Origin: an uncultured Phycisphaerales bacterium
Lineage (GTDB): Bacteria; Planctomycetota; Phycisphaerae; SM23-33
Assembly (NCBI GenBank): GCA_965369385.1
Contig: CBDUQP010000003.1
Span: 1 to 63,885 of the forward strand
Reading direction: 5' to 3'
Length of the DNA: 63,885 nucleotides
Of the stretch, positions 22,930-63,885 are shown in pieces. Each line of letters begins with the position of its first letter. Position 1 is the first letter of the stretch. The notes under the pieces are model-generated. The model was given only the letters and a program-made list of their open reading frames with translations, was not told the DNA's origin and did not search any database. The position numbers were made by a program, and so were the translations under genes.

Positions 22930-23802
22930 TTCGATCTCCGCAGACGGTCTCCGATAGCTGGTGTTCGTCAGCCTTGCAGCTATGAAAACCGTCGATATTT
23001 CGCAAACCTGCTATCGCTGCAGCATGGCATAAGTGCCTGATAATCATCTCTCAACAACAAGAGAAATACCTAGGATTGCCTCATGCTAATCCGTTTTAGC
23101 ATAATGCGTGAGTCATGTCAAGCGTGTTGCCGTGCCTCATGTGCACAATCGATCATTCATTCTGTCGAAGTGTGTGTAGAGCACCATCGCCAGAGATGTT
23201 ACGCGTGGACGCCTGAAAGGCGTTTTCGCGGATTTGTACCGTCTCATCTAATGATATGCGTGCATCCCCAAGCAGCAAGACGATATCTCGCGTTCCGAAA
23301 CGATTTCCGACGAGTTTTCCACTTTGACATGGATCCTCGGGCCAGGAGAGGGGGGTGAAGGTGGGTGGATCGCAAATTGTCGTATCGGTATTGTCGGAGA
23401 TGCCCCGAGCCGATGAGTTTGATGCTGATGGGGCTTGGCTGTATGGTTGTGGTTAGGCGGCATATGAAATGACCCGCATATAAGTCCTGCAACAATAGGA
23501 CTATAGGGCAGGATGTGAATAATCGGAACAGATGCTCTGGGGAGAGTGCGGCTGACCAGCCTGTCGGTTGGCCCGAGATAAGAGGGTTCCCTGCCGGCGG
23601 TATAGCTGTGGAGCCCAAGTTGCTTGAGGGGCCTGTATCGGGCTCTGGTAATGCACTCCGTCGTCTGGTCAAAGTGCACAAGTAGGCTATAAGCTTGGGC
23701 GAGTTCCACCGTGGGCGATGCTGCCTTGCGGGTGGGGCTATGTTCCGGGGAACGCCCGCTATCGGTGCCAAGTTGTCAAGGCGGGGTAAGTATTAATAAA
23801 CA

Positions 23803-52000: not shown

Positions 52001-53020
52001 CACGCTGGCGTTATCGGAATGCGTCGCGGAGTAGGCACTGTCAAGCTTGCCGCCGCCGATACCGGAATCCTTAGCGTTGGGTTGGGAGCCAAGAGCCTGA
52101 AAGCTTCTGGAGATGTGTCCAATTCGCTGTTCACATTTGGAACGTGGATGGGTGCGGACAATGAATACAATACCGCCGATGATGAGATATTTGGTGGATC
52201 GTTGCGAAGTGCAAGCTTCAGCCGTGAGTTCGAAGACAGTGTCCTGGTTGCAGGCGTGTTGCCAAGCTTGAGTTACGGCGAGGGCTTCCCCATTGACCGG
52301 CGAGCTTATGTTGGTAACCGCGGAAGTTCTGATATCGCACTTCAGGACTCGGCTGAGGCGGGCGGATTGTTGCCCAGCACCATCGGACGCATAAATATTC
52401 GAGGAAGGGTCGTGAATAGCCATGCAAACACCGGAGCAATGTCAGCGATTGCTGCTGCCGATGGCGTTGGTTTGGTCAAACTGAGTCATCGCGGTAGCAC
52501 GATAGCGTGTCGCGCCTATCGAAATTCGCTTGGTGTGCCGCAGGGGGGCGCGGGCGCCCTGGTGATCTTGAACGACAGCAAGGCTGAATGGGTATTCTCC
52601 GAAGAGCTTAATAGTTCATCATTCGTGTTGGCCCAGAATAATACTGGTGGATCGGACTTGACCGACCCTAGCGATGTTCTAGGTAGTGTTGAGGTTATGG
52701 ATGAGAATGGAGTTTACTGCAATGACGTCCAGTTGGGTTACGAGACTCGTGTGGTCGCCGGTAAGACAGTTGGCGTATTGACGTTCTTCTCCCCCGGTTT
52801 GTTTGCTGCCGACAAAGGCGTGACCGTAACGATTCACGGTAGGACCGGCGCTGATGAGCTTACAATTTACGACAGGTCTGGCTTGAGGTCGGCCTTGCGA
52901 GATCCTAACCGTGACGGCGTATCTGATCCGAATGAAGATCCGCTGGGAACTATCTTCGATGGTGACGACGTAGACCAGGAAGAAGGCGGATCCGTTACTG
53001 CGACCAGGAACTTCCCATAA
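40067..53020 (+). CDS. Giant secreted protein (4317 aa): repeated beta-propeller-like regions and very long beta-solenoid-like repeat tracts
   Basis: Single uninterrupted 12,954-nt ORF. ATG at 40067 follows GGGAGA. N-terminal 'CFESLEQRQMLT' leader motif. Blade-like units occur at aa ~200-720, ~900-1330 and ~3250-3700 ('I.G(I/L/M)AF...G.LY(A/G)...L..I(D/N)..TG'). Hundreds of short units of the type 'G(D/N)h..h.V.G.h.G.I' occur at ~44.4-49.3 kb and ~51.4-52.5 kb. Confidence 0.85.
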   Translation: MSFFSSNDPRRKSLSLSPMCFESLEQRQMLTTLFGGDVFEFTAPNKGTHDPTDYLTVRVSLTGDIIVELIGCDFDDHNNIILGDIPGMLYQSDIGVGGTRILGGIAGGSGSQTMTGVSMPRPADGSTSESWAYNPVENNELINLQGLASRDALAQGDTYAFNVASYDNAAGDTVTAVQLTKIPSLTGNPTATEEANLASPKLDGFIANLTTGAIDGEITGFAINPVTGVAYVVADSPTNGPTLYTVDRDDGTVTLIDVIGLAGVGGNNQAIGGIQAIAFNAAGDLYGITRDYDGDATANASAHMDGETAATPSPAFDAALVKISTATAKFDGATEVFVIKDGGYDVGYDYSAMAFHPDSGVLYAAAVTPSGGTSLQVFGNTTADTVAVTAPKVIKTTEETPADTIIQGLTFANKPSGGWFLLGTDNQATTKLMSIDYQSAAANATILGVLDGPFRGLDSYLVTGDTRTLFGVNTNLGTGVSSLYRGTAMTLTRAAGATVESILGADFMPRTGTVNDGRLFFVCRQANDTARSDLLYSVDVDAGDDISIQNSLKYHGEISNSVDLSVSSIAFEESTTGGAKLYGYQSSDDVAQIIEINPTTGSSSRVGYVTQGGEPLTGITGIEFVADDPLTEAQELYMVTTGDEASLYRFNLNTHQTYLVGSVIDQDDSDIVLGTDGPIAGADLGGLAWQPNYLNPFTGEFGALIGSDVTSDQLVVIDHRDRPPTSDVFAIHISQSSPDASISMGIVPNFDPEDPTAERLLEPFGESVGFIRVTSTDGEEYEAVANGGTGGVYIGGRTEDISSDIDDEDLIPVIIGDLSKEIGAWPSSWDQLPGDDHNDTVAGVTVAASVLEYFTHTTAGLTTLPDLQDRMIGKNFDLVSEMATTSDGTTIVVDSDHIDENGNPVKDQIAEIDNATGQIQGTPASIVDAVTLAPIDGVQGLAYADDGSGDGTQDLYAILNVASNMPVDVGNDDLSILNPASPPPYIAALENPVAITAASAGIVYAIDDANGDDTLYKMHGWEVRTDGTLITMPSREIKNSAGEAITNIKSFEYDSTTGTLYFIGEDPTTSELRLYTLNPSTGETSDGQPLVPGAGVIADYRDFRGLAFVEGTLYAAGWHTADANGTTLFELDIATGDLTNLGKITVGGVDTPEIAEMDVDGSGRLVAVDSDDNRLIFVNLTDATLSIESTSAGSVDADLHGYASDNDGLFYSIMDPGGAAFEEIWVSEGDLPTLGKLVFDAGQNHWLFTEINTLDGGSITGVKAMAFTGNGSDGDTLQDLFVIDSLNQLHQINPANGDIVHTYGEVIDTDKILFDEFGVAIVGSGVINIGSMDFDGEGRLFGHDVGFGRLVTISTEIGGGAWVGYDDPVTPTAGTFESSDASFRPTVGAMSYDGSTQRFLAVDNITGSLATSPGESATLMVVKGNNVSNTDETVEFTQDATQDINNILIGGTVTGEVHISGSINTFYAGWLLTGDVSGLGSGSFPLNFTVGGDILNLIVSDDIGTSGSYLEDEDVTELTYATEFDMHVMGKIGQVWSMGTICGEISAENNDDVGGFTRDAFVNGPVNVLGYTEVESKDSLPDGPESGREDYAFGTLFRLHAGDGRFDNDTIETAQYVGTMRQNGPDDPDQIVIAGLGGTDYFSFGLLGGQTIEILASNIEMLELYDPDGRLIATNQENIDDDFVNTVNDRNTIRLTVDRPGIYTVGAQTDVLYAVTINDVGEVAIGAVRADKDLYNSSGTMVGVQSDHGVNRSGDVGVVKAGNYIISVGGGVDIEVTDGNLRAMTATRIGVTWEGEIKPEDGKPCKVNVHASGDVGLILSSEAITGELDEGAMVLEATVGGNMQVIDAAGELVIEADVDKGIGVIRAGSIVDDDAYINVNRDNDGQDGIIDLIDIEGDLTGLPITTGAGGNVRYMRVGGNIRQTELFGGSNMATTVTLEPGQSLADYYNGLGFVDDSGTTINIAPIDSITGEQSETAQMVLRYFGILGSGGAVLVDITCSTSVEITAYDSGLGNFVEIGKIDLTGAAGQATITNANGDAMLDESGTTLTVEILGNCSVDVLEIVGGEFTSIKNKSGSLDHYGDAGEIVSVTATSIGLLSSRGNIGIARSHTGTVINPRAIVSGGNSYPFVQQHTGIVAGNIGDIVSHKAIGNIISSGTIGRVYANYENTVDHMAELGELDAIGQYHGIVAPILAATRIHSVNIGEGIAPTGSGSVGFAGLFSPGTIGTVRNQGSGSDIYGDIVGTGGVEKIILINGSLIDTNVMTVSLGHNIEDRPEDGWLSGDIGMISITGDGGIIGTYFLAINIGNTTVRGGLGIVNSLYQVTGGGSSIGNITVTSGIIRDVSLENATHVGNVTARGMGSTVPVAELSSALRYSGDADYAYNPLFGFVHRTTNDIHFDLAGGAAPTLTSGYIKKFKLHGMGDMDFLRGYHVEECEIFVTNMFRGVRTVTDMDEFRGSVIRAGRLGSMEIGGNFGSVVAVPDVTVAGQIDRIVVGGDWARARVEAQGPNGNIVYIRIDGEMLSGSVKATGKIGTFIVGGDMHGNLEVTSDGKYAIKTFKVGGSLTGNVIFNGNVGLLDFPQTLGAPGGSLYVTGNLNRLRVGSSRTLVPVSLSLNLTVLGDLKTLDVTGEIVGDILVQGDLGSIIVKSDAASAGTSIIDGTITVLGTLGTVKVTGGDIDGDIIVASDIRSFTITDGDLSATGMVMSSFGNIASFMIRGGDLLGQVLADNGMIGRLSVLGSDLGAASVIRSEELGTMTIDGSILAGAEVTVSGAVKSIKIGQDLVGTVALGSVGTMSIGRDLQGSLTSGYVSRGTRLTVGGDLAGVVDIDADTRLMVRGDTTAASTMLFGRGLTSAKFYGEVGGRLIVDEAIGSFQAASLKSAVVTSGFDIKSFAVRGNVDESFLQAGTSSGEDGTFGTDDLHEDSRMGQISSLTIGGTMTNSVFAAGGDIGRATVSGGMTNSSISSGFAADSDAIAVVYLDATPLGDAAERNAARAGAGRSLFNGDVGSVTVGGTGMVGSYLTAGVDPGDDGVFGVGAGANADNVVTSVTGGQSRFSSVRTVADAASYVLADTGIGRNGITGAGAANTDVDVTYDVNANALSANHALEAVVGVAENPVVGASFVYHGMTITVRGNGQVVVRDGGGDADKIDTLVLIGTDSRTTISIVSDVPGTKSICRILTADDSTVGTLTFDGDITGDNGGDNDDPALWIDGNIKTLAFRAMVDDDTTSGRWNGRIGGDIGSLELETQGAGRLRIGGEARKISITDSVGDVLLVTDAAAPAAGTFDTATSMAIDGVAKWIYDGTNLKDLAGTEDNVVSDAYRGSALVVNGLRGMDFSGGTLYAVVNTTPVSPTVVVSDAISDSADGLRCLTDIGSDTIVGIETSDNRDYLVNYDTTTGVTTRIGQLRDIFNNTYNQEVLAMAYSNSTQKLYALVSDRDGSGTLHSDADGVALVAIATETDGGGKIRVTSPTNDYRAGLFVDGGGETNDFTAMAVKPNGTVYAIRRNGASDELVTLNVTTGNITSTNTVQLPGGVDTDIVGMAFDITNGNKLIAFNNDGASAGMIEISTADGSAIEIVPSGVLDAAIDGFTIGNSGTGYAFDTAGSGSFYKSPGLQQTFGTLDTTNGDFTWWKALEQDDSGTPLESVVVDMAVDANDTGDVFVLTADGNLWRYAIAEGDLVGGVAIGTIVDVNTGEALDIRSFDFDDNDDLVGLDANNGRVVRINKATAAATVLFEAGVVDPDDLTAFASNAAGTTFYAFSNSADNFFGLAGLNQSALAGITVESVGTLTLGGGAQYGGRVVATGNTFKTVKVTGPFNGRVVTVGDINRFSMTGHFGGSLIAGGSIKSVSIKGGDFQVGGSVIARGDLKSLSLSGGNFSGVISAQTAGNVRVSGAALAEARVFVTDMANTIMFNGAFSGQMTLGSAKSITIGGQLASDEASITVNGKTGKLSIKGGTIADSLVLLDGYVRSLQLGGTHAGVIGMRRGVGTVKLAAADTGILSVGLGAKSLKASGDVSNSLFTFGTWMGADNEYNTADDEIFGGSLRSASFSREFEDSVLVAGVLPSLSYGEGFPIDRRAYVGNRGSSDIALQDSAEAGGLLPSTIGRINIRGRVVNSHANTGAMSAIAAADGVGLVKLSHRGSTIACRAYRNSLGVPQGGAGALVILNDSKAEWVFSEELNSSSFVLAQNNTGGSDLTDPSDVLGSVEVMDENGVYCNDVQLGYETRVVAGKTVGVLTFFSPGLFAADKGVTVTIHGRTGADELTIYDRSGLRSALRDPNRDGVSDPNEDPLGTIFDGDDVDQEEGGSVTATRNFP

Positions 53021-53815: not shown

Positions 53816-56800
53816 ATGTTCGGGAGAACAGAGGGATTCTCTCGTCACTATGGTGACGAGGATATTGCGCATGGGCCAGCCGTTCTGGAGCCCCTCGAGC
53901 CGCGCCTGTACATGTCAGCGGATTCACTTCCCCAGACGGTGGATATCGAATGGGCTGGATACACCACGCAGGCAGTAGCAAACGAATGGGTTGTTCGCTT
54001 CAACGCAACCGATGTCAAAATTTCTGATATAGAATCTCAGCTTTCCGCAAGTGGTTTTATTGACGCCGAACTCACCAGCTTAGGTGGTGGTTTCGGCGTT
54101 TTGTCGTCTGAGATCGCTGCGCTCGATCAGCTTCAGGCCTGGGTGGATACGGTAGACGAGGTGGTCTACATTGAACCCAACTTCGTTCACTCGATGGGAG
54201 ACGTTCAGGTCGATGCGATCAATCCCAGCGATCCCAGTTTCTCTACGCTATGGGGTCTGAATAATACCGGCCAGTTGGGCGGTACGGTAGACGCGGACAT
54301 CGATGCTCCCGAGGCGTGGGATATTACCACTGGATCATCGGATGTGGTTATCGCGATTATCGACACCGGTATCGACTACAACCACATTGATCTGTCCGCC
54401 AATATTTGGACAAATCCTGGCGAGATAGCCGGCGATGGAATCGATAATGACGGTAACGGTTTTGTAGATGACGTGCATGGATGGGATTTCGCTAACGACG
54501 ATGGCAACCCGCTTGACGATCACGGGCATGGTACGCATGTTGCCGGCACCATAGGTGCGGTTGGCGGCAATGCCACGGGAGTCACTGGCGTCAACTGGAA
54601 CGTCAAGATGATGGCGATGAAGTTCCTCGATGGCGGAGGCTCCGGTTCTACTGCTGACGCCATATACTCCATCAACTACATAACAATGATGAAGCGAGAC
54701 TATGGCATAAACATAGTCGCGGCGAATAACAGTTGGGGCGGAGGTGGGTATTCAAACGCGCTCTATCAGGCGGTGGAACAGGCCAATGACGCGGGCATTT
54801 TGTTCATAGCGGCGGCGGGAAATGAGGGGACGAATAACGAAGTGACCCCGCATTATCCCAGTTCCCTCACAAATGACAACGTGATATCGGTTGCCTCGAC
54901 CACTCGCACCGATTCGCTTTCGGGCTTCTCATGCTATGGAGTTACTTCGGTAGACCTGGCTGCGCCAGGCTCGTACATATATTCGACAACTCCCGGAAAT
55001 AACTACGCCACATACAGCGGCACCTCCATGGCCACGCCGCATGTCACCGGCGTTGTTGGGTTGCTGGCTGCGTATAACCCCAATGCCACCGCAGCCGAGA
55101 TAAAGGCCGCCATCCTTGCCGGCGTTGACGAAATTGTCTCTCTTGCCGGGAAAACGCTTACCGGCGGAAGGCTTAATGCCTTCAAGGCACTTCAGGCACT
55201 CGGAGCCGGCGGTGGCGGAGAAGATGTAACGCCGCCATCAGTACTGTCGGTCACGCCGTCAGGGACTACAGTCCAGGCTGACATGATCAGTGTGAACTTC
55301 AGCGAGCAGCTTGATGCCGACAGTTTGGAAGGCAGCAATTTCTTGCTGAGAAGCAGCGGCGCCGATGGTGTGTTTGATACCGGCGATGACGATATCATTA
55401 CAATTGAGACCGATGATATATCCAATCCATCTGGAAACTGGATCTCGTTGCAATTGGATGGTGAGTTGGATGCAGGCGAATATCGTCTTACGCTTCTGGG
55501 CACGGGAATCAATCCGCTCAGCGACGTCGCAGGCAACACCCTCGCCGACGGTTCTGACGTGATCCGCACCTTCACCGTGCTTGATCTCGCTGATGATACC
55601 GAGCAGAACGATACGCTGGCAACTGCCATGGCTACTGGCTTGGGCGGTATCGGTCAGGTTCAGTTCGCCGGATGGATCGGCAATGGTGCGTATGGTACGA
55701 AGGATGTGGATATGTACGAATTCACGGCCGCCAGCGATATGCTGCTGACCGTGGATCTGGATACCGCAAGTGACGGAAGCACTCTTACCGGCGGTGTGCG
55801 TGTGTTCAATGCATCAGGTAACGAGCTGGTGTTCAGCATAGACCGGGATTCGGATGCGGCTTGTCTCGTGTTCGAGATAGATGAAGCTGGAACTTATACG
55901 GTTGGCGTGTCAGGGCATGATAACCTTGACTACGCTGCCACGTCCAACGACAGCGGACAGGCTGGTTCTACCGGCCTCTACGGGCTAACAATGTCTCTCG
56001 CAGCAAACGATATAACCGACGATCCGACAACTTCGCCGGACGGCGGCGGGTATTATGCACGTGTGACCGGGTTTGTGTTCGAAGATATCAGTGGCGTAGG
56101 CAACTCGGCGTTGCGGCCGACTTCTGACGATGTCTCGTACGGAATTACCTCGGGGCAATTGTCTGGTTTCAATTTCGAATTCTATGGCCAGGATGTTACC
56201 TCCCTGTATGTGTCGAGCAACGGTCTGCTATCTTTCGGGCAGGGAAATACCGACTATCGCAACACGGATCTGTTGGCATCGCCTTCGCAGGCCGTGCTGG
56301 CTGCGTTCTGGGATGATCTGGTTGTGGGTGGGAATGATGATTCGGAGATATTGTGGGATATTCGCGGAAGTGGCGATGATCAGCGTCTGATCGTTCAGTG
56401 GAATGATTTGCGTCATTATGGCTCAGCAAACGGTCAGGACATAACGTTCCAGGCAGTGATGTACGAATCCGATAATTCGATAAGGTTCAACTATCTGGAT
56501 CTTCAAGTCGACGACATCACGCACACAGAAGCGAGGTCGGCTACGATAGGGATCAAGGATGCGGGCGCCCAGGGCGCAAGCCGCCTCTTGCTATCTTACA
56601 ATCAGGCAAGCAGCCCGTTTGTAGGGTCCGGCACGAGTACGTTGATTGTGCAGGGCGAAGTGCCCGAACCCACGCCGCAGTATGCCGATTTGACCTGTGA
56701 CATCGTTTATGACACGATTACGCAAACGGTCGTTCCCGGGCAGCGTGGGGTTGCCTATGTTACGATAGCCAATGTTGGCCAGGTAGCTACTAAGACTCGC

Positions 56801-58390
56801 GTCACCATTAACTTCTATGCATCAGCCGATACCACATTGGATGTTGATACCGACATTCTTCTGACATCATATACCAACCAGCGGGTATCGCTTTCTGCAG
56901 GTGCGGTCAGAATGTACAGGGCCAGGCTCGTGGTTCCCGGCGATCTGTTGCCGGACAGCTATCACCTTATCGCTAAGGTTGATGCCGACGATGCGCTGGA
57001 AGAATCCAACGAGGACAATAACGTGGCCGTCAGCGCCGAGACAATGGATGTTGTCTGGCGGTTCGGGAACTTTGATGGTATGCGCAATGTGCGGTTGACG
57101 GTGAAGGATGCTTCTGGCAATCTCGTCAGATTCTCTTTGCGTGGCAATGGCTATGGCGAAGTGACAGGCGGCACCGATTTCAGCCGGATAGAACTTCACG
57201 GAACAACCAATCGGTCCACTCTACAGATCGCTACCCAGCGCAGGGCAGTTACAACCGTGGGTGACATTGTTGCTGATGGTTCGTTGCGAGGCATTATCGG
57301 GCGCTATGCGAATTTGGGCGGTGATGTCTCTATCGCCGGATCACTGTCACTCCTGATGATGGGCAACGTCACCGATGGAGCTGGCGGGACACACTCGATA
57401 GACATAAACACTGCCGGTGGGGGCGCTGGCAGCCAGGTCATGATTCGTCTTGGCGAGGTCGAAGATACGAGTATTGACACAAATGGTGCCGATATTCGGG
57501 CACTCTATGTGACCAACTGGCTAGATACTGATGGCCAGGCAGATGTGATTGATGCCAATTCGATAAGGACGATGAGGGTATTGGGCAATCGCAGGACTGG
57601 CGTCGCAGGCGATTTCGGCGGTGAAATCACTCTCAGCGGTGCCAGCCGTCGCGGCCGTGCCTTCGGTTCCATGATAGTCGCAGGTACGGTTTTTGATGGG
57701 AGCATAACGGCCGTGGCTGGCGGCGTTGGAACTGTCCGTGTAGGGGCGTGGAATGGCGGGGCGATCACAGCGAACTCGGTTCGCAGCCTTCGCACTTCTG
57801 CCGGCAGGGGCGGACTCACCACCGGGAACTTCAGTTCCGATCTCACGCTTAGTGGCACAGGGGTCACTGGAAGAGCCAAGACGCTTGGATCGGCGAAGAT
57901 CGCCGGTGATCTGACGAGTAATATATGGGATATATCCGGCAATGTGGGCAGAATATCGGTGAAGGGCACGATCGGCGGAGGCGTGGAACTTAATAGCACA
58001 ATCCGCGTTTCAGGCAATATCCAGAGCATCACCGCACAGAAAATGAGTAACGTGGACATCCTTGCTGGTGTGGGCTCTATCAATGGACAACATGCAGAGC
58101 AGCAAGCCGATTTCCTGTCTAATGCTTCCCGCATAGGGTCTCTTACGATTACCGGAGACGGCACGGACAATCCGGCATTTACCAATAGCACCGTTTCAGC
58201 GTGGAAGCTCGGAAAGGTGAGACTGACGAACGTCGATTCCGCTGACAGCGGTATGTTTGTTCGTTCGGGTCTGTCTGGAGGCGGAATTGGCCGGCTGAAT
58301 TATCTCGACACAGTTGCCGGTCGTAGCTTTTCTGCACGCACGATAGATGACATGGCAGACGAACTGAGCGGATTCATTAACATCTTGTAA
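53816..58390 (+). CDS. Giant secreted subtilisin-like (S8) serine protease fused to Ig-like, PPC-like and CARDB-like domains and a C-terminal beta-solenoid module (1524 aa)
   Basis: GGAGGA lies 6 nt before the ATG. N-terminal 'VLEPLEPRLYMS' motif. Catalytic triad contexts 'VIAIIDTGID', 'HGHGTHVAGTIGA' and 'GTSMATPHVTGVVGLLAA'. 'AAAGNEG' (oxyanion Asn). C-terminal module at ~57050-58387 is co-linear with 7440-9140. Confidence 0.9.
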   Translation: MFGRTEGFSRHYGDEDIAHGPAVLEPLEPRLYMSADSLPQTVDIEWAGYTTQAVANEWVVRFNATDVKISDIESQLSASGFIDAELTSLGGGFGVLSSEIAALDQLQAWVDTVDEVVYIEPNFVHSMGDVQVDAINPSDPSFSTLWGLNNTGQLGGTVDADIDAPEAWDITTGSSDVVIAIIDTGIDYNHIDLSANIWTNPGEIAGDGIDNDGNGFVDDVHGWDFANDDGNPLDDHGHGTHVAGTIGAVGGNATGVTGVNWNVKMMAMKFLDGGGSGSTADAIYSINYITMMKRDYGINIVAANNSWGGGGYSNALYQAVEQANDAGILFIAAAGNEGTNNEVTPHYPSSLTNDNVISVASTTRTDSLSGFSCYGVTSVDLAAPGSYIYSTTPGNNYATYSGTSMATPHVTGVVGLLAAYNPNATAAEIKAAILAGVDEIVSLAGKTLTGGRLNAFKALQALGAGGGGEDVTPPSVLSVTPSGTTVQADMISVNFSEQLDADSLEGSNFLLRSSGADGVFDTGDDDIITIETDDISNPSGNWISLQLDGELDAGEYRLTLLGTGINPLSDVAGNTLADGSDVIRTFTVLDLADDTEQNDTLATAMATGLGGIGQVQFAGWIGNGAYGTKDVDMYEFTAASDMLLTVDLDTASDGSTLTGGVRVFNASGNELVFSIDRDSDAACLVFEIDEAGTYTVGVSGHDNLDYAATSNDSGQAGSTGLYGLTMSLAANDITDDPTTSPDGGGYYARVTGFVFEDISGVGNSALRPTSDDVSYGITSGQLSGFNFEFYGQDVTSLYVSSNGLLSFGQGNTDYRNTDLLASPSQAVLAAFWDDLVVGGNDDSEILWDIRGSGDDQRLIVQWNDLRHYGSANGQDITFQAVMYESDNSIRFNYLDLQVDDITHTEARSATIGIKDAGAQGASRLLLSYNQASSPFVGSGTSTLIVQGEVPEPTPQYADLTCDIVYDTITQTVVPGQRGVAYVTIANVGQVATKTRVTINFYASADTTLDVDTDILLTSYTNQRVSLSAGAVRMYRARLVVPGDLLPDSYHLIAKVDADDALEESNEDNNVAVSAETMDVVWRFGNFDGMRNVRLTVKDASGNLVRFSLRGNGYGEVTGGTDFSRIELHGTTNRSTLQIATQRRAVTTVGDIVADGSLRGIIGRYANLGGDVSIAGSLSLLMMGNVTDGAGGTHSIDINTAGGGAGSQVMIRLGEVEDTSIDTNGADIRALYVTNWLDTDGQADVIDANSIRTMRVLGNRRTGVAGDFGGEITLSGASRRGRAFGSMIVAGTVFDGSITAVAGGVGTVRVGAWNGGAITANSVRSLRTSAGRGGLTTGNFSSDLTLSGTGVTGRAKTLGSAKIAGDLTSNIWDISGNVGRISVKGTIGGGVELNSTIRVSGNIQSITAQKMSNVDILAGVGSINGQHAEQQADFLSNASRIGSLTITGDGTDNPAFTNSTVSAWKLGKVRLTNVDSADSGMFVRSGLSGGGIGRLNYLDTVAGRSFSARTIDDMADELSGFINIL

Positions 58391-58654: not shown

Positions 58655-59644
58655 ATGATGAAGATTTCGCGTTTGGGGATATGTGCCGCAATTTGCTGCG
58701 TGGGGTTTATGACGGTCAGTTCATACGGTGCCAGTCCCATCAAGACTTACACAAAGCCTTGTGTCGATATAGTCCTTTCGTTCGTTCGCTTGGGGAAGAT
58801 TGCCAAGATCGCGGTGAAAGATGGCGATATCGTCATGCCGGGCCAGTTGCTTGTCCAGCTTGACGATTCGGCGGAAAAGGCGGCCGTTGACCGTTTGGCG
58901 GCCAAGGCGAACCAGGATCTTCCGATCCAGGAAGGCAAGGCCAAGCTCGATCAGGCAAAGCTGGACCTCAAGAAGCGTGTGAAACACCCGAATGGGGTGT
59001 CAGCAATGGAAGTGGAGCATGCCAGGCTGACGGTGGTACTATCCGAGATTGCCTTGGCTGTTGCCAGATTCGAGGATGGCCAGAACGCCAGAACGCTCAA
59101 GGAAGCCAAGGTTCAGTTGGATCTTATGAAGATCAAGTGTCCCACGAGCAAATATGGGAGCAAGGGCTCCGGTTTCCGCGTGGAGCAGGTAATACGCAAG
59201 GTGGGTGAGTCGGTGGACCGGCTTGATGAGGTAGTCAGGATAGTGAAGCTCGATCCGCTGTGGTTGGACGTGGACGTGCCCATGGAAGACTTTCTCGAGC
59301 TCGGCCTGACCGAAGGCAGCAAGGCACGGGTTACTTTTTGCGGTGCCGACAAGCCTGTGGAAGGCAAGGTGTTCTTCGTTGCGGGCGTTGGAGATTACGC
59401 CAGTGGTACTCGTCGCGTGCGAGTGGAGTTGCCCAACCCCATGGGCCGGCCCTCCGGTGAAGATGCGACTGTTGTACTTGTTCCCTCGAAATCGTCCAAG
59501 ATATCGCCCAAGCCGGCACCAAAGGTCAAGGTCCCAGCACCGACGGCGACAACAATGCCCAGGAGCGAGTCGTCCGGGAAGGCTTTGCCTGTCGTGATCA
59601 AGCCCTCCAAGTCGGCAGACATGAAAACTGTGATTAAGAAGTAA
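58655..59644 (+). CDS. HlyD-family membrane-fusion/periplasmic adaptor protein (small paralog)
   Basis: AGGAG lies 6 nt before the ATG at 58655. Signal/anchor 'ISRLGICAAICCVGFMTVSSYG'. Lipoyl-like 'GKIAKIAVKDGDIVMPGQLLVQLD'. Coiled-coil segment, then a beta-barrel region 'ARVTFCGADKPVEGKVFFVAGVGDYASGTRRVRVELPN'. K/P/S-rich tail. Confidence 0.8.
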   Translation: MMKISRLGICAAICCVGFMTVSSYGASPIKTYTKPCVDIVLSFVRLGKIAKIAVKDGDIVMPGQLLVQLDDSAEKAAVDRLAAKANQDLPIQEGKAKLDQAKLDLKKRVKHPNGVSAMEVEHARLTVVLSEIALAVARFEDGQNARTLKEAKVQLDLMKIKCPTSKYGSKGSGFRVEQVIRKVGESVDRLDEVVRIVKLDPLWLDVDVPMEDFLELGLTEGSKARVTFCGADKPVEGKVFFVAGVGDYASGTRRVRVELPNPMGRPSGEDATVVLVPSKSSKISPKPAPKVKVPAPTATTMPRSESSGKALPVVIKPSKSADMKTVIKK

Positions 59645-59697
59645 TCGTATCGGATAATCCTCTCGGATTGTCTGAGACGATCAATAACGAGTGTTTT

Positions 59698-59726
59698 GCC
59701 GGGCGAACTGATTGGCCGGCGTTTTT
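59698..59726 (+). terminator. Hairpin plus T-tract between HlyD paralogs 1 and 2 (terminator or attenuator candidate)
   Basis: GCCGG...CCGGC short stem followed by GTTTTT. Weak. Confidence 0.35.
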
Positions 59727-59827
59727 CGTAAGTCCTTGCCGTCGCCCGAGATAACTCTGGACGGTCGGCAGTTTACCACCGGTCAATACGACTGGTACAA
59801 AGAACCAGATACCTGGAGATACTTCAT

Positions 59828-61711
59828 ATGTCGCAAGAGAGCGACTCTGTTTCCAAAGTACAGGGCGATCAAGTGCCCAGCATGAATGCACTGTTCGACG
59901 CCATGCGGGATTTCGATGGTGCTCCGGAAGAGTTCCTGTCTGGCCTCGTGCAATTGCAGGTGCAGGCTGTCAATGGCAAGGGCGGCGCGATCCTTAGGAT
60001 TCCACCTGACGGCACGGTAGAAGCGGTGGCAGTTTACCCGCCATTTCCCGAAAATTCTACCGCGCCGGTCTGGCTAGCCCAGGGTGCGGAACTGGCTGGT
60101 GAAGCCCTTAAACAGGGTGCGATACTCGTCAGGGATATGCACGGAACCGAGGATTTGTACGGACAAGGGCCTCGTGAGCATGTTGTCATGGTACCACTCA
60201 GTGGTGGGCGTGGCAGCATGGGCGTGGCTGTGTTTCTTCTCGGAGCCACCGGGCAGGCAGTTCTCGAAAGACAGGTAGAACGCCTGGAGCTTACGATTTC
60301 GCTGATGTATCTGCACGAGCTGCGACTTGTGCTGGAGCATCGCCAGCTTGATCTTGCCAGGATGCGGGTATCCATGGATACGCTGTCTGCCGTTAATGCA
60401 CACTCCCGATTCACAGGGGCAGCCATGTCCATCTGCAGCGAGATGGCAGCGAGATGGCAGTGCGAGCGAGTGAGCTTCGGCGTGATGGAAGGCCGGTATG
60501 TGAAGCTCAAGGCCATGAGCAATACCGAAAAATTCAGCCGCAAGATGAAACTGGTTCAGGACATCGAAGCTGCCATGGAGGAGTGCCTCGACCAGGATAT
60601 AGAGATTGTCTCTCCGGCAAGTCCCGAGGCTACTTATGTGTCTCGTGCAAATACGGAATTGGCTCGCAAACACGGGCCTTCTGCGGTCGTTAGCATCCCC
60701 CTGCGACGTGACGGCAAGCCGGTTGGCGTTGTGCTGGCAGAGCGTCCGCAAGATCAGCCGCTGGAGCTTGGGCAGATCGAAGCGATGCGACTTTCCTGCG
60801 AACTATGCACTGCGAGATTGCTGGACCTGCACGATACAGATCGCTGGTTCGGTGCCAGGGCTGCCAGCAGTGTAAAGAATGGGCTTTCTACGTTCATGGG
60901 GCCCAAGCACACATGGGCAAAGCTTACTGCCATTGTCGTGTTCCTGATCATTGTTTTCCTCGTCTTCTTCAAGGGTACGTACAGCGCCGAAGGTGAGATG
61001 ACGATCAACGCCGACAAGGAACAGCAGATTACCGCTCCGTTCGAGGGTATTCTGGAGTCGGTGAATGTTAAAGTTGGTGATCCGGTAGTCGCGGGGAAGA
61101 CAGTGCTGTTCGTGTTCGATACAGAGGAAATGAATGGTCGGCTCTTCGAGGCAAAGACGGCACACAGCAGCGCCCTGAAAGAAGCCAAGTATGCCAGGGG
61201 CAAGAACGAGATCGCCGAAGCGGTAACCAAGGAATTGGAAGCCGAAAAGATAATGGCGTCAATACGTCTGCTGGAAAGTCAGATATCGCGAGCATCCGTC
61301 AAGTCGGTAATTGACGGAACGGTCGCAAGCGGTAACCTGGAGCCTCACCTCGGCAGGCGATTTGGCATGGGTGAAGCCATCATGAGCGTGGCAAGGATGG
61401 ACACCGTTCATGCGGAGGTGCTCATAGATGAAGATCAGATTGCGGATATCGAGCTCGGTCAGAAAGGTGAGCTGGCAACGCACGCCAGCCCTGGCGAACA
61501 CATGGCGTTTGTTGTGGAACGAATCGATCCGGTCGCCGAGGTCGCCGAGAATCGCAATGTCTTCAGGGTACGCCTGAGGTTCAAGGATGCCGACACACGA
61601 CTCAAACTCAACATGAGCGGCATCGCAAAGATTCATGTCGGCAAACGCCTGTATGCCTACATTTGGAGCCGCAAGCTGGTTAACTGGTTGCGGATGAAAC
61701 TGTGGATGTAG
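59828..61711 (+). CDS. Tandem-GAF / single TM / HlyD-family membrane-fusion protein
   Basis: GGAGA RBS. The N-terminal ~370 aa reads as two GAF-like modules ('GGAILRIPPDG...VVMVPLSGGRGSMGVAVFLL' and 'ERVSFGVMEGRYVKLKAMSNT...VVSIPLRRDGKPVGVVLAERP'). TM helix 'LTAIVVFLIIVFLVFF'. HlyD lipoyl/coiled-coil/barrel region ('FEGILESVNVKVGDPVVAGKTVLFVFD', 'VFRVRLRF'). Confidence 0.8.
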   Translation: MSQESDSVSKVQGDQVPSMNALFDAMRDFDGAPEEFLSGLVQLQVQAVNGKGGAILRIPPDGTVEAVAVYPPFPENSTAPVWLAQGAELAGEALKQGAILVRDMHGTEDLYGQGPREHVVMVPLSGGRGSMGVAVFLLGATGQAVLERQVERLELTISLMYLHELRLVLEHRQLDLARMRVSMDTLSAVNAHSRFTGAAMSICSEMAARWQCERVSFGVMEGRYVKLKAMSNTEKFSRKMKLVQDIEAAMEECLDQDIEIVSPASPEATYVSRANTELARKHGPSAVVSIPLRRDGKPVGVVLAERPQDQPLELGQIEAMRLSCELCTARLLDLHDTDRWFGARAASSVKNGLSTFMGPKHTWAKLTAIVVFLIIVFLVFFKGTYSAEGEMTINADKEQQITAPFEGILESVNVKVGDPVVAGKTVLFVFDTEEMNGRLFEAKTAHSSALKEAKYARGKNEIAEAVTKELEAEKIMASIRLLESQISRASVKSVIDGTVASGNLEPHLGRRFGMGEAIMSVARMDTVHAEVLIDEDQIADIELGQKGELATHASPGEHMAFVVERIDPVAEVAENRNVFRVRLRFKDADTRLKLNMSGIAKIHVGKRLYAYIWSRKLVNWLRMKLWM

Positions 61712-61752
61712 TGATTGCGGGGCCCGAGGCGTATTGTCATCCTTGAGGATGT

Positions 61753-61773
61753 GGGCTGGCGTCAGCCCGTTTT
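61753..61773 (+). terminator. Hairpin plus T-tract between HlyD paralog 2 and the M50-HlyD gene
   Basis: GGGCTG-GCGT-CAGCCC followed by GTTTTGAGTGTTTCTT. Confidence 0.4.
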
Positions 61774-61812
61774 GAGTGTTTCTTACTGTCCAATCATAAT
61801 TAGAGAATCAAA

Positions 61813-63885
61813 TTGGCGATAGAGCGTCCGACATTCAGTGAATCGTGGTACCGAGTGGCCGACATGTCTCCGCGGCTTCGCTCTGCAGTGCAGGTGTTTC
61901 GTCAGCACTTTCGCGGGCGGATGTGGCACGTGTTACAGGATCCGGGAAGCAACCAGTTTCACCGGTTGTCCGGACCGGCGTACCACTTCATTGCCCTGCT
62001 TGACGGCAGACGCAAGGTGGCGGAAGTATGGGATATCTGCAACGAGGATCTTGGCGATGACGCCCCGACACAAGGCGAGGTAATCCGTCTGCTGGGGCAG
62101 TTGTATTCGTCAAATCTGTTGACTGCGGAAATAAGCCCCGATACGCAGGGTCTGTTCAGCCGCTATAAAAAGAGAGTCAGCCGGGAGGTAAAAGGCTACC
62201 TGACCAACCTGCTGTTCATTCGCGTGCCGATTTTCGATCCTGATCACTTGTTGGATGCTTGGGTGAAGGTGTTTGGGCTGCTGTTCTCTAAGGTCGGCTT
62301 GATCTGCTGGTTGGCATTGTTGTGTGTGGGTGGCTATTTTGCCCTGATCAACTGGCAGGAGTTGGGCGCCCAGAGCATGAACATCCTCAATCCTGATCAC
62401 TTGTGGATGCTGGGCTTGAGTTTCATTGCGATTAAGGCGGTTCACGAATTCGGGCACGCTTTTGCGTGTAAGAAGTTCGGTCAGTATGGTGGCGGGGGAG
62501 AAGTTCACGTAATGGGCATCATGTTCCTGGTGTTCATGCCCTTGCCATATGTTGATGCCACAAGCGCAACGGCGTTCCGCAGCAAGTGGCATAGGGTAAT
62601 CGTCGGTGCGGGCGGTATGTTCAGCGAACTGGCGGTCGCGGCGATAGCAGCAATCGTGTGGGGTTCCGTGGGCGACGGTACGGTGCGGGTTATTGCCTAT
62701 AACTTCATGTTCATTGCCAGTGTGATGACGTTGTTGTTCAACGCCAACCCACTGTTACGATATGATGGTTACTTCATTCTTGCCGACATCCTTGAGATTC
62801 CGAACCTGTCTCAGCGTGCGAAGCAATACCTCCAGTTTCTCGTCAAGAAGTACGTTTGGTCTGTGAGGAATCTGCAAAACCCGGCCCACACCAACGGCGA
62901 GCGGTTCTGGTTTGTTATTTACGGTATTGCATCTTCGATCTACCGCGTATTCATTCTGGTGATGATCCTGCTGTTCCTGAGTAACAGGCTACCGGAACAG
63001 TTGAAGGTGCTCGCGGTGGGAATGGGCTTTATCTCCGGTGCGATCTGGTTGTGCATGCCGATCGGAAAGCTCATTCGCTATCTTGCCACAAACAACGAGT
63101 TGGCCCGAACCCGAGGCCGCGCGGTGGCTACGGTCGTGGGGTTGGTAGTCGCTATTGTGGTGCTTGTTGGTTTTGTGAAGTTTCCTGACAGGTTCCGCGC
63201 AGAAGGTGTTGTCGAGCCTGTAGACTTTGCCATTATCTATGCGAATACCGATGGCTATGTGGGCAACTACCTGCCTTCGGGCACGAAGGTGTTTCCGGAT
63301 GGACCGCCGATCCTGAACGATCCTGCGAAGTATGCAAGTAAGCAGGCCATGTGGGAGAAGCTCAACAGCAGGTTGGCTGCGGAACACACATCACTTGTGG
63401 CACAGATTAAGCAGGTAGAGGTTCAATGGCGGATGGCGGTAGGGAAGGCGCAGGCTGCCGGCGCGCAGGTTCTTGCCCGGCGGCTGGAGGACTTGAGAAA
63501 AAGCGAGGTCCGCGTCCGATCCGATCTGGAGGGTCTGACGATATTCGCCGGGTTCAAGGGAACATGGGATTGCCCCAAGGCCAACAGGTTACCGGGGCAT
63601 TACGCCAAGAAGGGCGACGAGATCGGTAAGCTTGTATCGCTCGACAAAATCATGATCCGGGTCGTCGCCAAGCAGGAGGCGGTCATCGCGTTGAGGAGCC
63701 TGCGGGATAGCAATTGGGTTGTACCAATTGAGATTCGCGTGAAGGGCAGACCAGATCCCGCGTTTGGCGGAAAGGTAACGAAGATATTCCCCGCAGGCAG
63801 CACCCGGTTGCCGTCGGGGGCGCTGGGGTATGCAGCCGGTGGTAGGGTGGCAGTAAAGACGGCGGCCACGAAGGGGACTACGGCG
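61813..63885 (+). CDS. PqqD/RRE-like domain / M50 (site-2-protease-type) zinc metalloprotease / HlyD-like domain fusion, 3' end beyond window
   Basis: Not in the supplied ORF track because no stop occurs. I translated frame 1 from TAG at 61801-61803 to nt 63885 (691 codons) without a stop. 'HEFGH' at 62443-62457. 'NANPLLRYDG' (NxxPxxxxDG) at 62740-62769. Multiple TM helices. The C-terminal part ('RAEGVVEPVDFAIIYANTDGYV...coiled coil...IEIRVKGRP') is HlyD-like. The start is assigned to TTG at 61813 and is uncertain. Confidence 0.8.
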   Translation, partial: MAIERPTFSESWYRVADMSPRLRSAVQVFRQHFRGRMWHVLQDPGSNQFHRLSGPAYHFIALLDGRRKVAEVWDICNEDLGDDAPTQGEVIRLLGQLYSSNLLTAEISPDTQGLFSRYKKRVSREVKGYLTNLLFIRVPIFDPDHLLDAWVKVFGLLFSKVGLICWLALLCVGGYFALINWQELGAQSMNILNPDHLWMLGLSFIAIKAVHEFGHAFACKKFGQYGGGGEVHVMGIMFLVFMPLPYVDATSATAFRSKWHRVIVGAGGMFSELAVAAIAAIVWGSVGDGTVRVIAYNFMFIASVMTLLFNANPLLRYDGYFILADILEIPNLSQRAKQYLQFLVKKYVWSVRNLQNPAHTNGERFWFVIYGIASSIYRVFILVMILLFLSNRLPEQLKVLAVGMGFISGAIWLCMPIGKLIRYLATNNELARTRGRAVATVVGLVVAIVVLVGFVKFPDRFRAEGVVEPVDFAIIYANTDGYVGNYLPSGTKVFPDGPPILNDPAKYASKQAMWEKLNSRLAAEHTSLVAQIKQVEVQWRMAVGKAQAAGAQVLARRLEDLRKSEVRVRSDLEGLTIFAGFKGTWDCPKANRLPGHYAKKGDEIGKLVSLDKIMIRVVAKQEAVIALRSLRDSNWVVPIEIRVKGRPDPAFGGKVTKIFPAGSTRLPSGALGYAAGGRVAVKTAATKGTTA

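What the first reader, a model, noticed from the sequence alone, without database searches (positions are those of the whole stretch)
58655..63885. Three consecutive HlyD-type membrane-fusion paralogs: one plain, one GAF-GAF-fused, one fused to an M50 metalloprotease, with no pump in sight
HlyD/MFP adaptors normally bridge an inner-membrane ABC, RND or MFS pump to an outer-membrane channel. Here three co-oriented genes each carry an HlyD-like lipoyl, coiled-coil and barrel region, but no transporter is present. The inner-membrane partners are fused directly. Gene 2 has ~370 cytoplasmic residues forming two GAF-like sensor modules, then one TM helix, then the HlyD region. Gene 3 is a polytopic M50/site-2-protease-type enzyme ('HEFGH' at 62443-62457, 'NANPLLRYDG' at 62740-62769) with an HlyD-like C-terminal half. 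It is missing from the ORF track because it runs off the window. This reads as a trans-envelope apparatus in which an intramembrane or juxtamembrane protease, not a pump, is the engine and a GAF-bearing subunit supplies small-molecule control. The only loosely comparable characterised case I know is the M50-family YydH of the B. subtilis yydFGHIJ peptide locus, which lacks HlyD fusions. Function, substrate and outer-membrane partner are unknown. This is the best candidate in the window for an undescribed system.
Basis: partly seen in the sequence, partly recalled or inferred. Interest (0 to 1): 0.8.

Follow-up and report, generated by a model that had tools for sequence, protein, structure and literature searches.

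The report
Secretion machine for giant leader-tagged proteins
The three adaptor-like genes are real and belong to a widespread, apparently undescribed envelope-spanning apparatus (three adaptors, a membrane metalloprotease, a truncated SecA-type ATPase and a TolC channel) that sits beside giant proteins carrying the unexplained 'LEPR-XLL' N-terminal export motif and probably secretes them.

Summary
Three co-oriented genes (58655-59644, 59828-61711, 61813-63885) each carry a membrane-fusion (HlyD/MFP) region. Gene 2 adds a cytoplasmic GAF domain and one TM helix. Gene 3 adds a PqqD-like peptide-binding domain and a 7-TM HExxH/NxxPxxxxDG (M50-type) protease core.

"No pump in sight" arises because the contig ends at 63885. 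In 102 of 113 related loci with room downstream, the next gene is a truncated SecA-like ATPase (about 660 aa, lacking the wing, two-helix finger and C-tail). A TolC-family gene and often DUF3467 also belong to the cluster. No ABC, RND or MFS pump is a conserved neighbour.

The cluster occurs in Planctomycetota, Alpha-, Gamma- and Delta-proteobacteria, Chlorobiota and other phyla. It repeatedly sits beside giant proteins with the N-terminal FExLE(P)RxLLSA motif (Pfam Planc_extracel, NCBIfam LEPR-XLL). That motif has been proposed as an export signal with no known machinery.

In this window the 4317-aa and 1524-aa proteins directly upstream carry the motif and lack a Sec-type hydrophobic segment.

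Best reading: a TolC/MFP-based secretion system for LEPR-XLL proteins, driven by a SecA-like motor and with leader recognition and cleavage by gene 3. The function is inferred, not shown. I found no published description.

The parts
58655..59644 (+). Gene 1: plain periplasmic adaptor (MFP1), 329 aa, with an N-terminal signal/anchor
   Evidence: HlyD_3 at 6e-12, HlyD_D23 at 2e-10 and RND_mfp at 2e-20. My MFP1 family HMM scores 3e-110. The 329-aa product is the called gene in public data. A hydrophobic N-terminal segment is present.
59828..61711 (+). Gene 2: GAF-MFP, 627 aa. Cytoplasmic residues 1-362 contain one detectable GAF (about 190-330, nt 60395-60817). TM helix at 363-381 (nt 60914-60970). 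Periplasmic MFP from residue 386 to the end (nt 60983-61711).
   Evidence: Pfam hits. TM helix. In the family, HlyD_3 hits 50/50 members and GAF hits 49/50. The best solved relative by profile is MacA at 1.7e-21.
61813..63885 (+). Gene 3 (3' end missing, about 40-60 codons): cytoplasmic PqqD/RRE-like domain (residues 27-103, nt 61891-62121); 7-TM M50-type metalloprotease core (residues 144-455, nt 62242-63177) with HEFGH at 62443-62457 and NANPLLRYDG at 62740-62769; periplasmic MFP (residues 464 onward, nt 63202-63885).
   Evidence: Motif coordinates and domain hits. HExxH, N..N and D are invariant in 20 and 53 homologs. Family-level Pfam hits. The AF2 model has pLDDT 86.7, with three strands plus three helices at the N-terminus, a helical membrane core, and an alpha-hairpin with beta domains. 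Foldseek matches MexA, MacA and AcrA.
53816..58390 (+). Candidate substrate: 1524-aa S8 subtilase with Big_5, PPC, NIDO and CARDB domains and an N-terminal LEPR-XLL leader (VLEPLEPRLYMSAD, nt 53885-53923). No Sec-type hydrophobic segment.
   Evidence: NCBIfam LEPR-8K scores 21.4 bits against a cut-off of 17. Pfam domains. No hydrophobic segment in the first 200 aa.
40067..53020 (+). Candidate substrate: 4317-aa giant protein with a variant leader (CFESLEQRQMLTT, nt 40127-40162). No Pfam domains and no Sec-type hydrophobic segment.
   Evidence: Regex match. Weak Pfam Planc_extracel hit at E 0.08. The same variant leader (CFEPLEERLMLTT / CLESLEQRLMLTT) is on giant ORFs that follow the SecA-like gene in L104 and L120. 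No Pfam domains. No hydrophobic segment in the first 200 aa.
2325..9140 (+). Possible further substrate, 49 kb away: about 2270-aa cadherin/Big_9/SdrD_B/PKD protein with leader LMESFEPRLMLSG
   Evidence: LEPR-8K scores 15.4 bits, just under the cut-off of 17. Domains.

Best explanation
The triad is the inner-membrane and periplasmic part of a conserved multi-gene, envelope-spanning secretion apparatus. The apparatus is dedicated to very large proteins that carry an N-terminal LEPR-XLL / 'Planctomycete extracellular' leader: a basic stretch, then FExLE(P)RxLLSA, with no Sec signal.

The full set seen in relatives is: plain MFP, often DUF3467, GAF-MFP, RRE-M50-MFP, a truncated SecA-like ATPase, and a TolC-family outer-membrane channel.

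Proposed mechanism (all steps inferred):
1. The cytoplasmic PqqD-like domain of gene 3 binds the leader.
2. The SecA-like ATPase clamps and pushes the unfolded, possibly still nascent, chain N-terminus first. It keeps NBD1, the preprotein cross-linking domain and NBD2, but lacks the parts that engage SecY. It probably docks on the cytoplasmic GAF region of gene 2 and/or on gene 3.
3. The M50 site, near the cytoplasmic face of TM2, removes the leader. This would be analogous to the C39 domain of bacteriocin ABC exporters.
4. The three MFP paralogs form the periplasmic tube to TolC.

Shown here: the domain architectures, the invariant catalytic residues, the gene linkage across phyla, and the adjacency to LEPR-type giant genes.
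For: Gene order across 143 loci:
- The SecA-like gene comes immediately after the M50-MFP gene in 102 of 113 loci with room downstream, and is elsewhere in the locus in 3 more.
- The GAF-MFP gene comes immediately before it in 111 of 119.
- TolC/OEP is present in 51 loci, the plain MFP in 75 and DUF3467 in 29. TolC/OEP identity was confirmed by Pfam OEP at 2e-22.

The same cluster occurs in named organisms from distant phyla:
- Phycisphaerae.
- Thiorhodovibrio, Maridesulfovibrio and Methylocystaceae, where it lies next to 7000-12000-aa proteins (two of them with RTX repeats).
- Ensifer, Methylosinus, Pseudosulfitobacter and Thalassospira replicons, with PGAP-named 'LEPR-XLL domain-containing protein' directly upstream in the last two.
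- E. coli IncF plasmids, next to a 4457-aa cadherin/Ig protein whose N-terminus reads RFALESRQLFDG.

LEPR-type leaders:
- They flank the system in 33 loci.
- All 38 HMM hits lie in the first 170 residues of their ORFs.
- Several pass the NCBIfam LEPR-8K cut-off.
- The window's two upstream proteins carry the leader and have no hydrophobic signal segment.

SecA-like protein: it aligns to B. subtilis SecA residues 28-606 with the GEGKT, DEAD-type and TNMAGRGTDI motifs intact, and ends about 35 residues into the scaffold helix in every lineage examined.

Gene 3:
- HExxH and NxNPLxxxDGY are invariant.
- It is homologous to RRE-containing RiPP leader peptidases.
- The 7-TM count places the RRE domain in the cytoplasm and the MFP in the periplasm.
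- Its MFP fold is confirmed.

Against: - No experiment exists. The substrate link rests on gene neighbourhood only, without a genome-wide background for LEPR gene density.
- In this window the SecA-like, TolC and DUF3467 genes are not present, because the contig ends. Their existence in this organism is inferred from relatives at 57-62% identity.
- Two variants (a Thalassospira plasmid and E. coli IncF plasmids) lack a SecA-like gene in the operon. Either the ATPase is not universally required or it is encoded elsewhere.
- The closest Phycisphaerae relatives (L001, L153, L154) have no LEPR gene within 10 kb.
- The window's 4317-aa protein does not reach any curated LEPR or Planc_extracel threshold.
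- SecA-like proteins from different phyla are no more similar to each other (38-53% identity) than they would be to ordinary SecA, so a single origin is suggested only by the shared truncation.
- Whether an S2P-type core can pass a polypeptide is unknown.
Confidence: 0.65

Rival explanations
1. A sorting or processing system rather than the translocon itself. The LEPR leader would be a sorting tag, comparable to PEP-CTERM with exosortase. The substrate would cross the inner membrane by another route. The M50-MFP complex would only cleave the tag and hand the protein to TolC or anchor it at the surface. The SecA-like protein would act as a targeting chaperone.
For: - Variants without a SecA-like gene exist.
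- The M50 catalytic residues are invariant.
- Many LEPR proteins in a genome lie far from the system, for example window 2325-9140.
Against: - The leaders have no Sec or Tat features.
- The SecA-like protein lacks the SecY-engaging two-helix finger and scaffold.
- Three MFPs plus TolC imply a continuous conduit starting at the inner membrane.
Confidence: 0.15
2. A RiPP-type small-peptide maturation and export system, like daptide or YydF. The RRE-M50 protease would trim a short precursor, and the MFP/TolC parts would export it.
For: - The N-terminal 400 residues of gene 3 match daptide_HExxH at 2.7e-44 and YydH/LiaK at 3.5e-9.
- The PqqD-like domain is typical of RiPP pathways.
Against: - Both scores are far below the family cut-offs (152 bits against 300; 37 against 225).
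- No radical-SAM, other modifying enzyme or short precursor gene is conserved in 143 loci.
- The conserved neighbours are a SecA-like ATPase, TolC and giant proteins.
Confidence: 0.08
3. An ordinary tripartite efflux or type I secretion operon whose ABC, RND or MFS pump is encoded elsewhere, with an incidentally fused protease.
For: - The MFP regions are closest to MacA, EmrA and MexA.
- Public annotation calls these proteins efflux adaptors.
Against: - No ABC, RND or MFS gene is a conserved neighbour in any of the 143 loci or the annotated replicons.
- The fusion to M50 and the linkage to a SecA-like gene are conserved across phyla.
Confidence: 0.05
4. A signalling device: regulated intramembrane proteolysis by an S2P-type enzyme, gated by a GAF sensor, unrelated to secretion.
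For: - The M50/S2P family is best known for regulated intramembrane proteolysis.
- A GAF domain is present.
Against: - No anti-sigma or sigma factor is a conserved neighbour.
- TolC, three MFPs and a SecA-like ATPase have no place in such a pathway.
Confidence: 0.04

Closest known systems
Type I secretion / tripartite ABC-MFP-TolC systems for giant adhesins (HlyBD-TolC, LapBCE, SiiCDF)
   Same: - MFP plus a TolC-family channel.
- Substrates are giant, repeat-rich proteins, often with RTX or cadherin/Ig domains, encoded next door.
- Probably one-step export without a Sec signal.
   Different: - No ABC transporter; the inner-membrane module is an M50-type protease fused to an MFP, plus a SecA-like ATPase.
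- Three different MFPs instead of one.
- The signal is N-terminal (LEPR-XLL), not C-terminal. This implies N-to-C, possibly co-translational, transport.
Peptidase-containing ABC exporters of bacteriocins (PCATs such as CvaAB-TolC)
   Same: - A leader-specific protease is built into the exporter.
- An N-terminal leader is removed during export.
- MFP and TolC are used in Gram-negative bacteria.
   Different: - The protease here is a membrane-embedded HExxH metalloprotease with an RRE domain, not a cytoplasmic C39 cysteine protease.
- The motor is SecA-like, not ABC.
- The cargo is thousands of residues long, not a peptide.
Daptide and YydH/LiaK intramembrane HExxH proteases of RiPP pathways (NCBIfam NF041824, NF058609)
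   Same: - Homologous PqqD-like domain plus a polytopic HExxH/NxxPxxxxDG core (2.7e-44 and 3.5e-9).
   Different: - Scores are well below the equivalog cut-offs.
- Those enzymes have no MFP fusion, no SecA-like or TolC partners, and act on short modified peptides.
SecA, SecA2, and the SecA_DEAD + PP_bind modules fused to Omnitrophota and Actinobacteria giant proteins (West-Roberts et al. 2023, bioRxiv 10.1101/2023.11.21.568195)
   Same: - The motor domains NBD1, PPXD and NBD2 are intact.
- Like the fused modules, it lacks the wing/scaffold region and is associated with giant proteins.
   Different: - Here it is a separate ~660-aa protein in an operon with MFPs, an M50 protease and TolC.
- It is below all NCBIfam SecA and SecA2 cut-offs.
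- No SecY2 or accessory Sec genes are present.
LEPR-XLL domain (NCBIfam NF012209) / Planc_extracel (Pfam PF07595) proteins
   Same: - The window's 1524-aa protein passes the LEPR-8K cut-off.
- The motif was proposed in 2004 as a Planctomycete export signal (quoted in PMC8567305).
- It is found on ~8000-aa proteins in Vibrio (PMC10868602).
   Different: - These entries describe only the motif.
- No cognate machinery is named in the papers I could search or in the curated HMM libraries I scanned.

Membership tests
Membrane-fusion / HlyD periplasmic adaptor (PF13437, PF16576) | Lipoyl, alpha-hairpin and beta-barrel domains matching the HlyD profiles, in genes 1 and 2 | tested here: met
   Gene 1: HlyD_3 at 46.6 bits and HlyD_D23 at 40.5 bits. 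Gene 2: 55.2 and 69.6 bits. All are above cut-offs.
Membrane-fusion / HlyD periplasmic adaptor | The same fold in the C-terminal half of gene 3 | tested here: met
   There is no Pfam hit in the window protein itself. However, 6 of 20 relatives hit HlyD_D23 or HlyD_3. The AF2 model (pLDDT 86.7) matches MexA, MacA, AcrA and EmrA at Foldseek probability 1.0, with target-normalised TM-score (TMt) up to 0.62.
Peptidase M50 / site-2 protease | HExxH in one TM helix and NxxPxxxxDG in another | tested here: met
   HEFGH is at 62443-62457 and NANPLLRYDG at 62740-62769. H, E, H, N, N and D are invariant in 20 and in 53 homologs.
Peptidase M50 / site-2 protease | Score above the Pfam PF02163 gathering threshold (27.2 bits) | tested here: inconclusive
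   The window protein gives no hit at E<0.1. Of 20 relatives, 18 hit at E<0.01. P0284 reaches 28.2 bits and the E. coli plasmid homolog 34.7 bits.
Daptide intramembrane metalloprotease (NF041824) and YydH/LiaK (NF058609) | Equivalog score cut-off (300 and 225 bits) and a RiPP gene cluster | tested here: not met
   Scores are 151.9 and 36.7 bits. No precursor or modifying genes are conserved in the neighbourhood.
PqqD / RRE peptide-binding domain | PF05402 match and a fold of three strands plus three helices | tested here: inconclusive
   The window protein scores 21.5 bits, below the 23.4 cut-off. Relative P0005 scores 31.5 bits, and 7 of 20 members match. The model shows strands 27-33, 36-43 and 48-52, then helices 54-62, 69-83 and 87-99. 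Peptide binding is not testable here.
   One copy is supported: GAF_2 at 29.8 bits (cut-off 28.6) and GAF at 22.9 bits (cut-off 22.4), with 49 of 50 family members matching. No profile hit covers residues 1-170.
Type I secretion system | An ABC transporter as the inner-membrane component | tested here: not met
   None is present in the window, and none is a conserved neighbour in 143 loci or in the annotated replicons.
Type I secretion system | A TolC-family outer-membrane factor | tested here: inconclusive
   It is absent from the 63.9-kb window. It is present in 51 related loci, with Pfam OEP at 2e-22, and in annotated plasmids.
Canonical SecA / accessory SecA2 | Full domain set (NBD1, PPXD, NBD2, scaffold, wing, two-helix finger) and NCBIfam cut-offs | tested here: not met
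   The neighbour protein in relatives has SecA_DEAD, PP_bind and P-loop_SecA only. SecA_SW scores 0.025, below threshold. It aligns to B. subtilis SecA residues 28-606 and then ends. Its best score of 636.9 bits is below the 862 cut-off, and it is below all SecA2 cut-offs. The gene itself is not in the window.
LEPR-XLL domain proteins (NF012209) | An N-terminal ~24-residue motif scoring at least 17 bits | tested here: met
   The 1524-aa protein scores 21.4 bits. The 2272-aa protein scores 15.4 bits, just below the cut-off. The 4317-aa protein matches only the regex and gives a weak Planc_extracel hit at E 0.08.

The most novel reading that the evidence does not exclude
This is a previously unrecognised type of Gram-negative protein secretion system. 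It would be a TolC-coupled conduit whose inner-membrane engine is a SecA-derived ATPase working with an MFP-fused site-2-type protease. It would recognise an N-terminal LEPR-XLL leader through an RRE domain and secrete proteins of 1,500 to more than 12,000 residues N-terminus first, perhaps co-translationally, across both membranes. If so, it would be the missing export route for the 'Planctomycete extracellular' signal.
Probability: 0.5. Interest if true: 0.92.

Novelty: new variant of a known kind. Interest (0 to 1): 0.85.

Why it matters
- The LEPR-XLL / Planc_extracel motif was proposed in 2004 (Studholme et al., as cited in PMC8567305) as an export signal. It marks dozens of surface proteins per planctomycete genome and some of the largest bacterial proteins known, yet no export route has been assigned. 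A cognate machine would make that question directly testable by deletion, leader swap and N-terminal mapping.
- It would add a fourth kind of inner-membrane module, beside ABC, RND and MFS, to the MFP-TolC tripartite scheme.
- It would show SecA being re-used outside the Sec translocon. This echoes the unexplained SecA-like modules fused to Omnitrophota giant proteins.
- A variant of the system rides on E. coli and Citrobacter IncF plasmids next to a 4457-aa cadherin/Ig adhesin. This gives a tractable model and possible relevance to colonisation.
- Current annotation hides the system under names such as 'MacA', 'PqqD family chaperone', 'site-2 protease', 'SecA' and even 'prepilin peptidase'.

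Tried and rejected
- **Extending the contig.** An exact look-up of gene 2 and of the 99%-identical P0001 found no contig. The window is the whole 63885-nt contig, so the downstream gene could only be inferred from relatives.
- **N-termini of the proteobacterial giant proteins.** I tried to retrieve them by a homology search with the C-terminal 1500 residues of L065.
- **DUF3467 as a SecB-like chaperone.** A profile search against PDB sequences gave no hit better than E 0.87, and hhalign against E. coli SecB gave probability 0.4%. The idea is unsupported and the role remains unknown.
- **Structure of gene 2.** The single-sequence model is unusable (pLDDT 36).
- **DUF3467, TolC or SecA-like genes elsewhere in the window.** None was found, even at E<=10 on ORFs of at least 40 aa.
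- **Literature.** Ten searches found no paper that links M50, HlyD, SecA-like and LEPR.
- **NCBIfam LEPR-8K on the E. coli plasmid giant protein.** No hit. Its RFALESRQLFDG motif is similar by eye only.
- **SecA-like proteins as a tight clade.** Cross-phylum identity is only 38-53%, so monophyly is not shown.
- **First ORF clustering.** It was contaminated by antisense ORFs in these GC-rich loci and was redone with non-overlapping ORFs and HMMs.
- **E. coli genome search.** My query included the end of IS1, so the results were swamped by IS1 copies. Only the count of 22 genomes with at least 80% coverage is usable.

Full report
**What is in the window**

The ORF listing and a frame translation confirm three co-oriented genes. 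The quoted motifs lie at exactly the stated coordinates: HEFGH at 62443-62457 and NANPLLRYDG at 62740-62769.

- Gene 1 (58655-59644) is a plain periplasmic adaptor. It matches HlyD_3, HlyD_D23 and RND_mfp.
- Gene 2 (59828-61711) has about 360 cytoplasmic residues with one GAF domain that just passes Pfam cut-offs. It then has a single TM helix (363-381) and an MFP region whose closest solved relatives by profile are MacA and EmrA.
- Gene 3 starts at TTG 61813 and runs off the contig. Full-length relatives are 728-754 aa, so about 40-60 codons are missing.

In Pfam the window copy of gene 3 shows only a sub-threshold PqqD hit. Several other results establish its architecture:

- NCBIfam matches its first 400 residues to the RRE-containing daptide intramembrane HExxH protease at 2.7e-44. 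That score is below the equivalog cut-off.
- 18 of 20 family members hit Peptidase_M50, and 6 of 20 hit HlyD profiles.
- H211, E212, H215, N310, N312 and D318 are invariant in 53 homologs.
- An AlphaFold model built on those homologs (pLDDT 86.7) shows a three-strand, three-helix N-terminal domain, a helical membrane core, and then an alpha-hairpin flanked by beta domains.
- Foldseek places the C-terminal part with MexA, MacA, AcrA and EmrA at probability 1.0.
- Seven hydrophobic spans put the RRE domain in the cytoplasm and the MFP in the periplasm, with HExxH near the cytoplasmic end of TM2.
- Family HMMs cross-hit between the three MFP regions, so they are paralogs.

Only one GAF domain could be shown.

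**Why 'no pump in sight' is an edge effect**

The window is the entire 63885-nt contig. I collected 61 genome loci, 80 metagenome loci, nine loci by exact look-up and six annotated plasmid regions. I then scored their ORFs with HMMs built from the first clusters.

Of 113 loci with at least 900 nt after the M50-MFP gene, 102 have a SecA-like gene immediately downstream on the same strand, and 3 more have it elsewhere in the locus. The GAF-MFP gene immediately precedes the M50-MFP gene in 111 of 119 loci.

Other recurrent members are:

- a TolC/OEP-family lipoprotein (51 loci; Pfam OEP 2e-22);
- the plain MFP (75 loci);
- DUF3467 (29 loci);
- in Proteobacteria, a conserved ~140-aa secreted protein or SapC.

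The two closest relatives of the window genes (62% and 58% identity) read MFP, DUF3467, GAF-MFP, M50-MFP, SecA-like. No ABC, RND or MFS transporter is a conserved neighbour anywhere.

**The SecA-like protein**

It is about 640-700 aa. It carries SecA_DEAD, the preprotein cross-linking domain and the second P-loop domain, with the ATPase motifs intact. It aligns to B. subtilis SecA residues 28-606 and stops about 35 residues into the scaffold helix. It therefore lacks the wing domain, the two-helix finger that enters SecY, and the C-terminal tail.

It falls below every NCBIfam SecA and SecA2 cut-off. Databases call it 'SecA', 'DEAD/DEAH box helicase', 'hypothetical' or, wrongly, 'prepilin peptidase'.

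**The likely cargo**

In three proteobacterial genomes the gene immediately upstream of DUF3467 encodes a protein of 12082, 7259 or 7008 aa. The latter two have RTX repeats.

In the window, the two genes directly upstream of gene 1 are a 4317-aa protein and a 1524-aa S8 subtilase with Ig-like, PPC and CARDB domains. Both begin with a short basic stretch followed by FESLEQRQMLTT or LEPLEPRLYMSAD. Neither has any hydrophobic segment in its first 200 residues.

This is the Planctomycete 'extracellular' motif (Pfam PF07595), which is also the NCBIfam LEPR-XLL domain. The subtilase passes the LEPR-8K cut-off at 21.4 bits against 17.

ORFs with this leader flank the system in 33 loci. Many run off the locus end after more than 2500 codons, and several immediately follow the SecA-like gene. 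All 38 hits of a motif HMM lie within the first 170 residues of their ORFs, and none lies elsewhere in 637,000 residues.

PGAP itself names the upstream giant gene 'LEPR-XLL domain-containing protein' on the Pseudosulfitobacter and Thalassospira replicons.

On E. coli IncF plasmids a reduced variant follows a 4457-aa cadherin/Ig protein whose N-terminus reads RFALESRQLFDG. The variant consists of TolC, an MFP, a GAF-less MFP and the M50-MFP, and is then interrupted by IS1.

**Mechanism (inferred)**

The architecture suggests a TolC-coupled, one-step exporter.

1. The RRE domain recognises the N-terminal leader.
2. The SecA-like ATPase supplies the pushing force without SecY. It probably docks on the highly conserved cytoplasmic GAF region of gene 2; the nearly invariant residues of that region cluster at positions 195-321.
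3. The M50 site removes the leader.
4. The three MFP paralogs build the periplasmic tube.

An N-terminal signal implies N-to-C transport, which could begin during translation. That would be attractive for cargo of 4,000-13,000 residues.

**Caveats**

- Two variants lack the SecA-like gene in the operon. In both, the cytoplasmic part of the second MFP is also reduced or divergent. That is a hint of co-dependence, but it also warns that the ATPase may be dispensable.
- Some close relatives have no LEPR gene within 10 kb.
- I have no genome-wide background for LEPR gene density.
- DUF3467 has no detectable similarity to SecB or to any solved structure by sequence.

**Comparison with what is known**

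- The system works most like a type I or PCAT-type exporter (MFP plus TolC, leader cleavage coupled to export, giant adhesin cargo). It fails the defining T1SS test because it has no ABC transporter.
- Its protease is homologous to RiPP leader peptidases (daptide, YydH) but falls well below their family cut-offs and has no RiPP gene context.
- Its ATPase is a SecA derivative but not a member of the SecA or SecA2 families.
- The closest published parallel is the report that Omnitrophota and actinobacterial giant proteins carry fused SecA_DEAD and PP_bind modules lacking scaffold and wing, of unknown role.
- A 2026 preprint notes a horizontally acquired secA co-expressed with giant symbiosis proteins in Chlorobium chlorochromatii, without identifying a system.
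- The LEPR / Planc_extracel motif is described only as a putative export signal.
- Ten full-text searches found no paper that connects these parts.
- Neither NCBIfam nor Pfam has a specific model for the M50-MFP, GAF-MFP or truncated SecA families.

**Verdict**

I rate it a new variant of the tripartite MFP-TolC kind, with an unprecedented inner-membrane module. There is about an even chance that it deserves to be called a new secretion system type.

Noticed in passing
window 1-825 (+), 867-1958 (+), 2325-9140 (+): The contig starts inside a secretin gene (Pfam Secretin 3.7e-36). It is followed by a 364-aa ORF with no Pfam hit and then the ~2270-aa cadherin/Big_9/PKD protein with a near-threshold LEPR leader. 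A secretin beside a LEPR protein might point to a second route or an unrelated pilus or T2SS locus.
   Followed up: partly
window 59644-59828: DUF3467, which sits between the plain MFP and the GAF-MFP in the closest relatives, is absent here. The gap is only 184 nt and no DUF3467-like ORF exists anywhere in the window. Gene 1 instead has a ~35-residue Pro/Lys/Ser-rich C-terminal extension.
   Followed up: partly
L148/L149 (E. coli IncF plasmids NZ_CP081687, NZ_CP022155); 22 E. coli genomes: A reduced version of the system lies next to a 4457-aa DUF4347/cadherin/Big_9 protein. It consists of TolC, an MFP, a 449-aa MFP without GAF and a 710-aa M50-MFP. It ends at an IS1 element and has no SecA-like gene. 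It could be a tractable model or a decayed copy.
   Followed up: partly
L150 13047-15071; L152 10219-12135: RefSeq/PLSDB annotates the SecA-like gene as 'prepilin peptidase'. Pfam gives SecA_DEAD at 1e-99 to 1e-103. This looks like an annotation error that is propagated in public records.
   Followed up: yes
L064 14155-14580; L065 14126-14584; L066 14125-14529: A conserved ~135-150-aa protein with a signal peptide and no Pfam or NCBIfam match follows the SecA-like gene in three proteobacterial lineages. It was not found in the Planctomycetota loci.
   Followed up: partly
L150 12233-13054: A SapC-family gene lies between the M50-MFP and SecA-like genes in Pseudosulfitobacter. Ensifer has a ~900-nt gap at the same position, whose content I did not check. 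The Chlorochromatium preprint also lists sapC and tolC beside its giant genes. SapC may be another accessory part.
   Followed up: no
window 22207-23010 (-): A 268-aa ORF has a prepilin-type N-terminal methylation motif (N_methyl 2.6e-7). This is typical of the many type IV pilin-like / DUF1559 proteins of Planctomycetota and fits the taxonomic assignment.
   Followed up: no
window 40067-53020: The 4317-aa protein has no Pfam domain at E<0.001 over its whole length. Its N-terminal leader variant (C-F-E-x-L-E-x-R-x-M-L-T-T) recurs on giant ORFs in L104 and L120, which suggests a distinct sub-class of LEPR cargo.
   Followed up: partly
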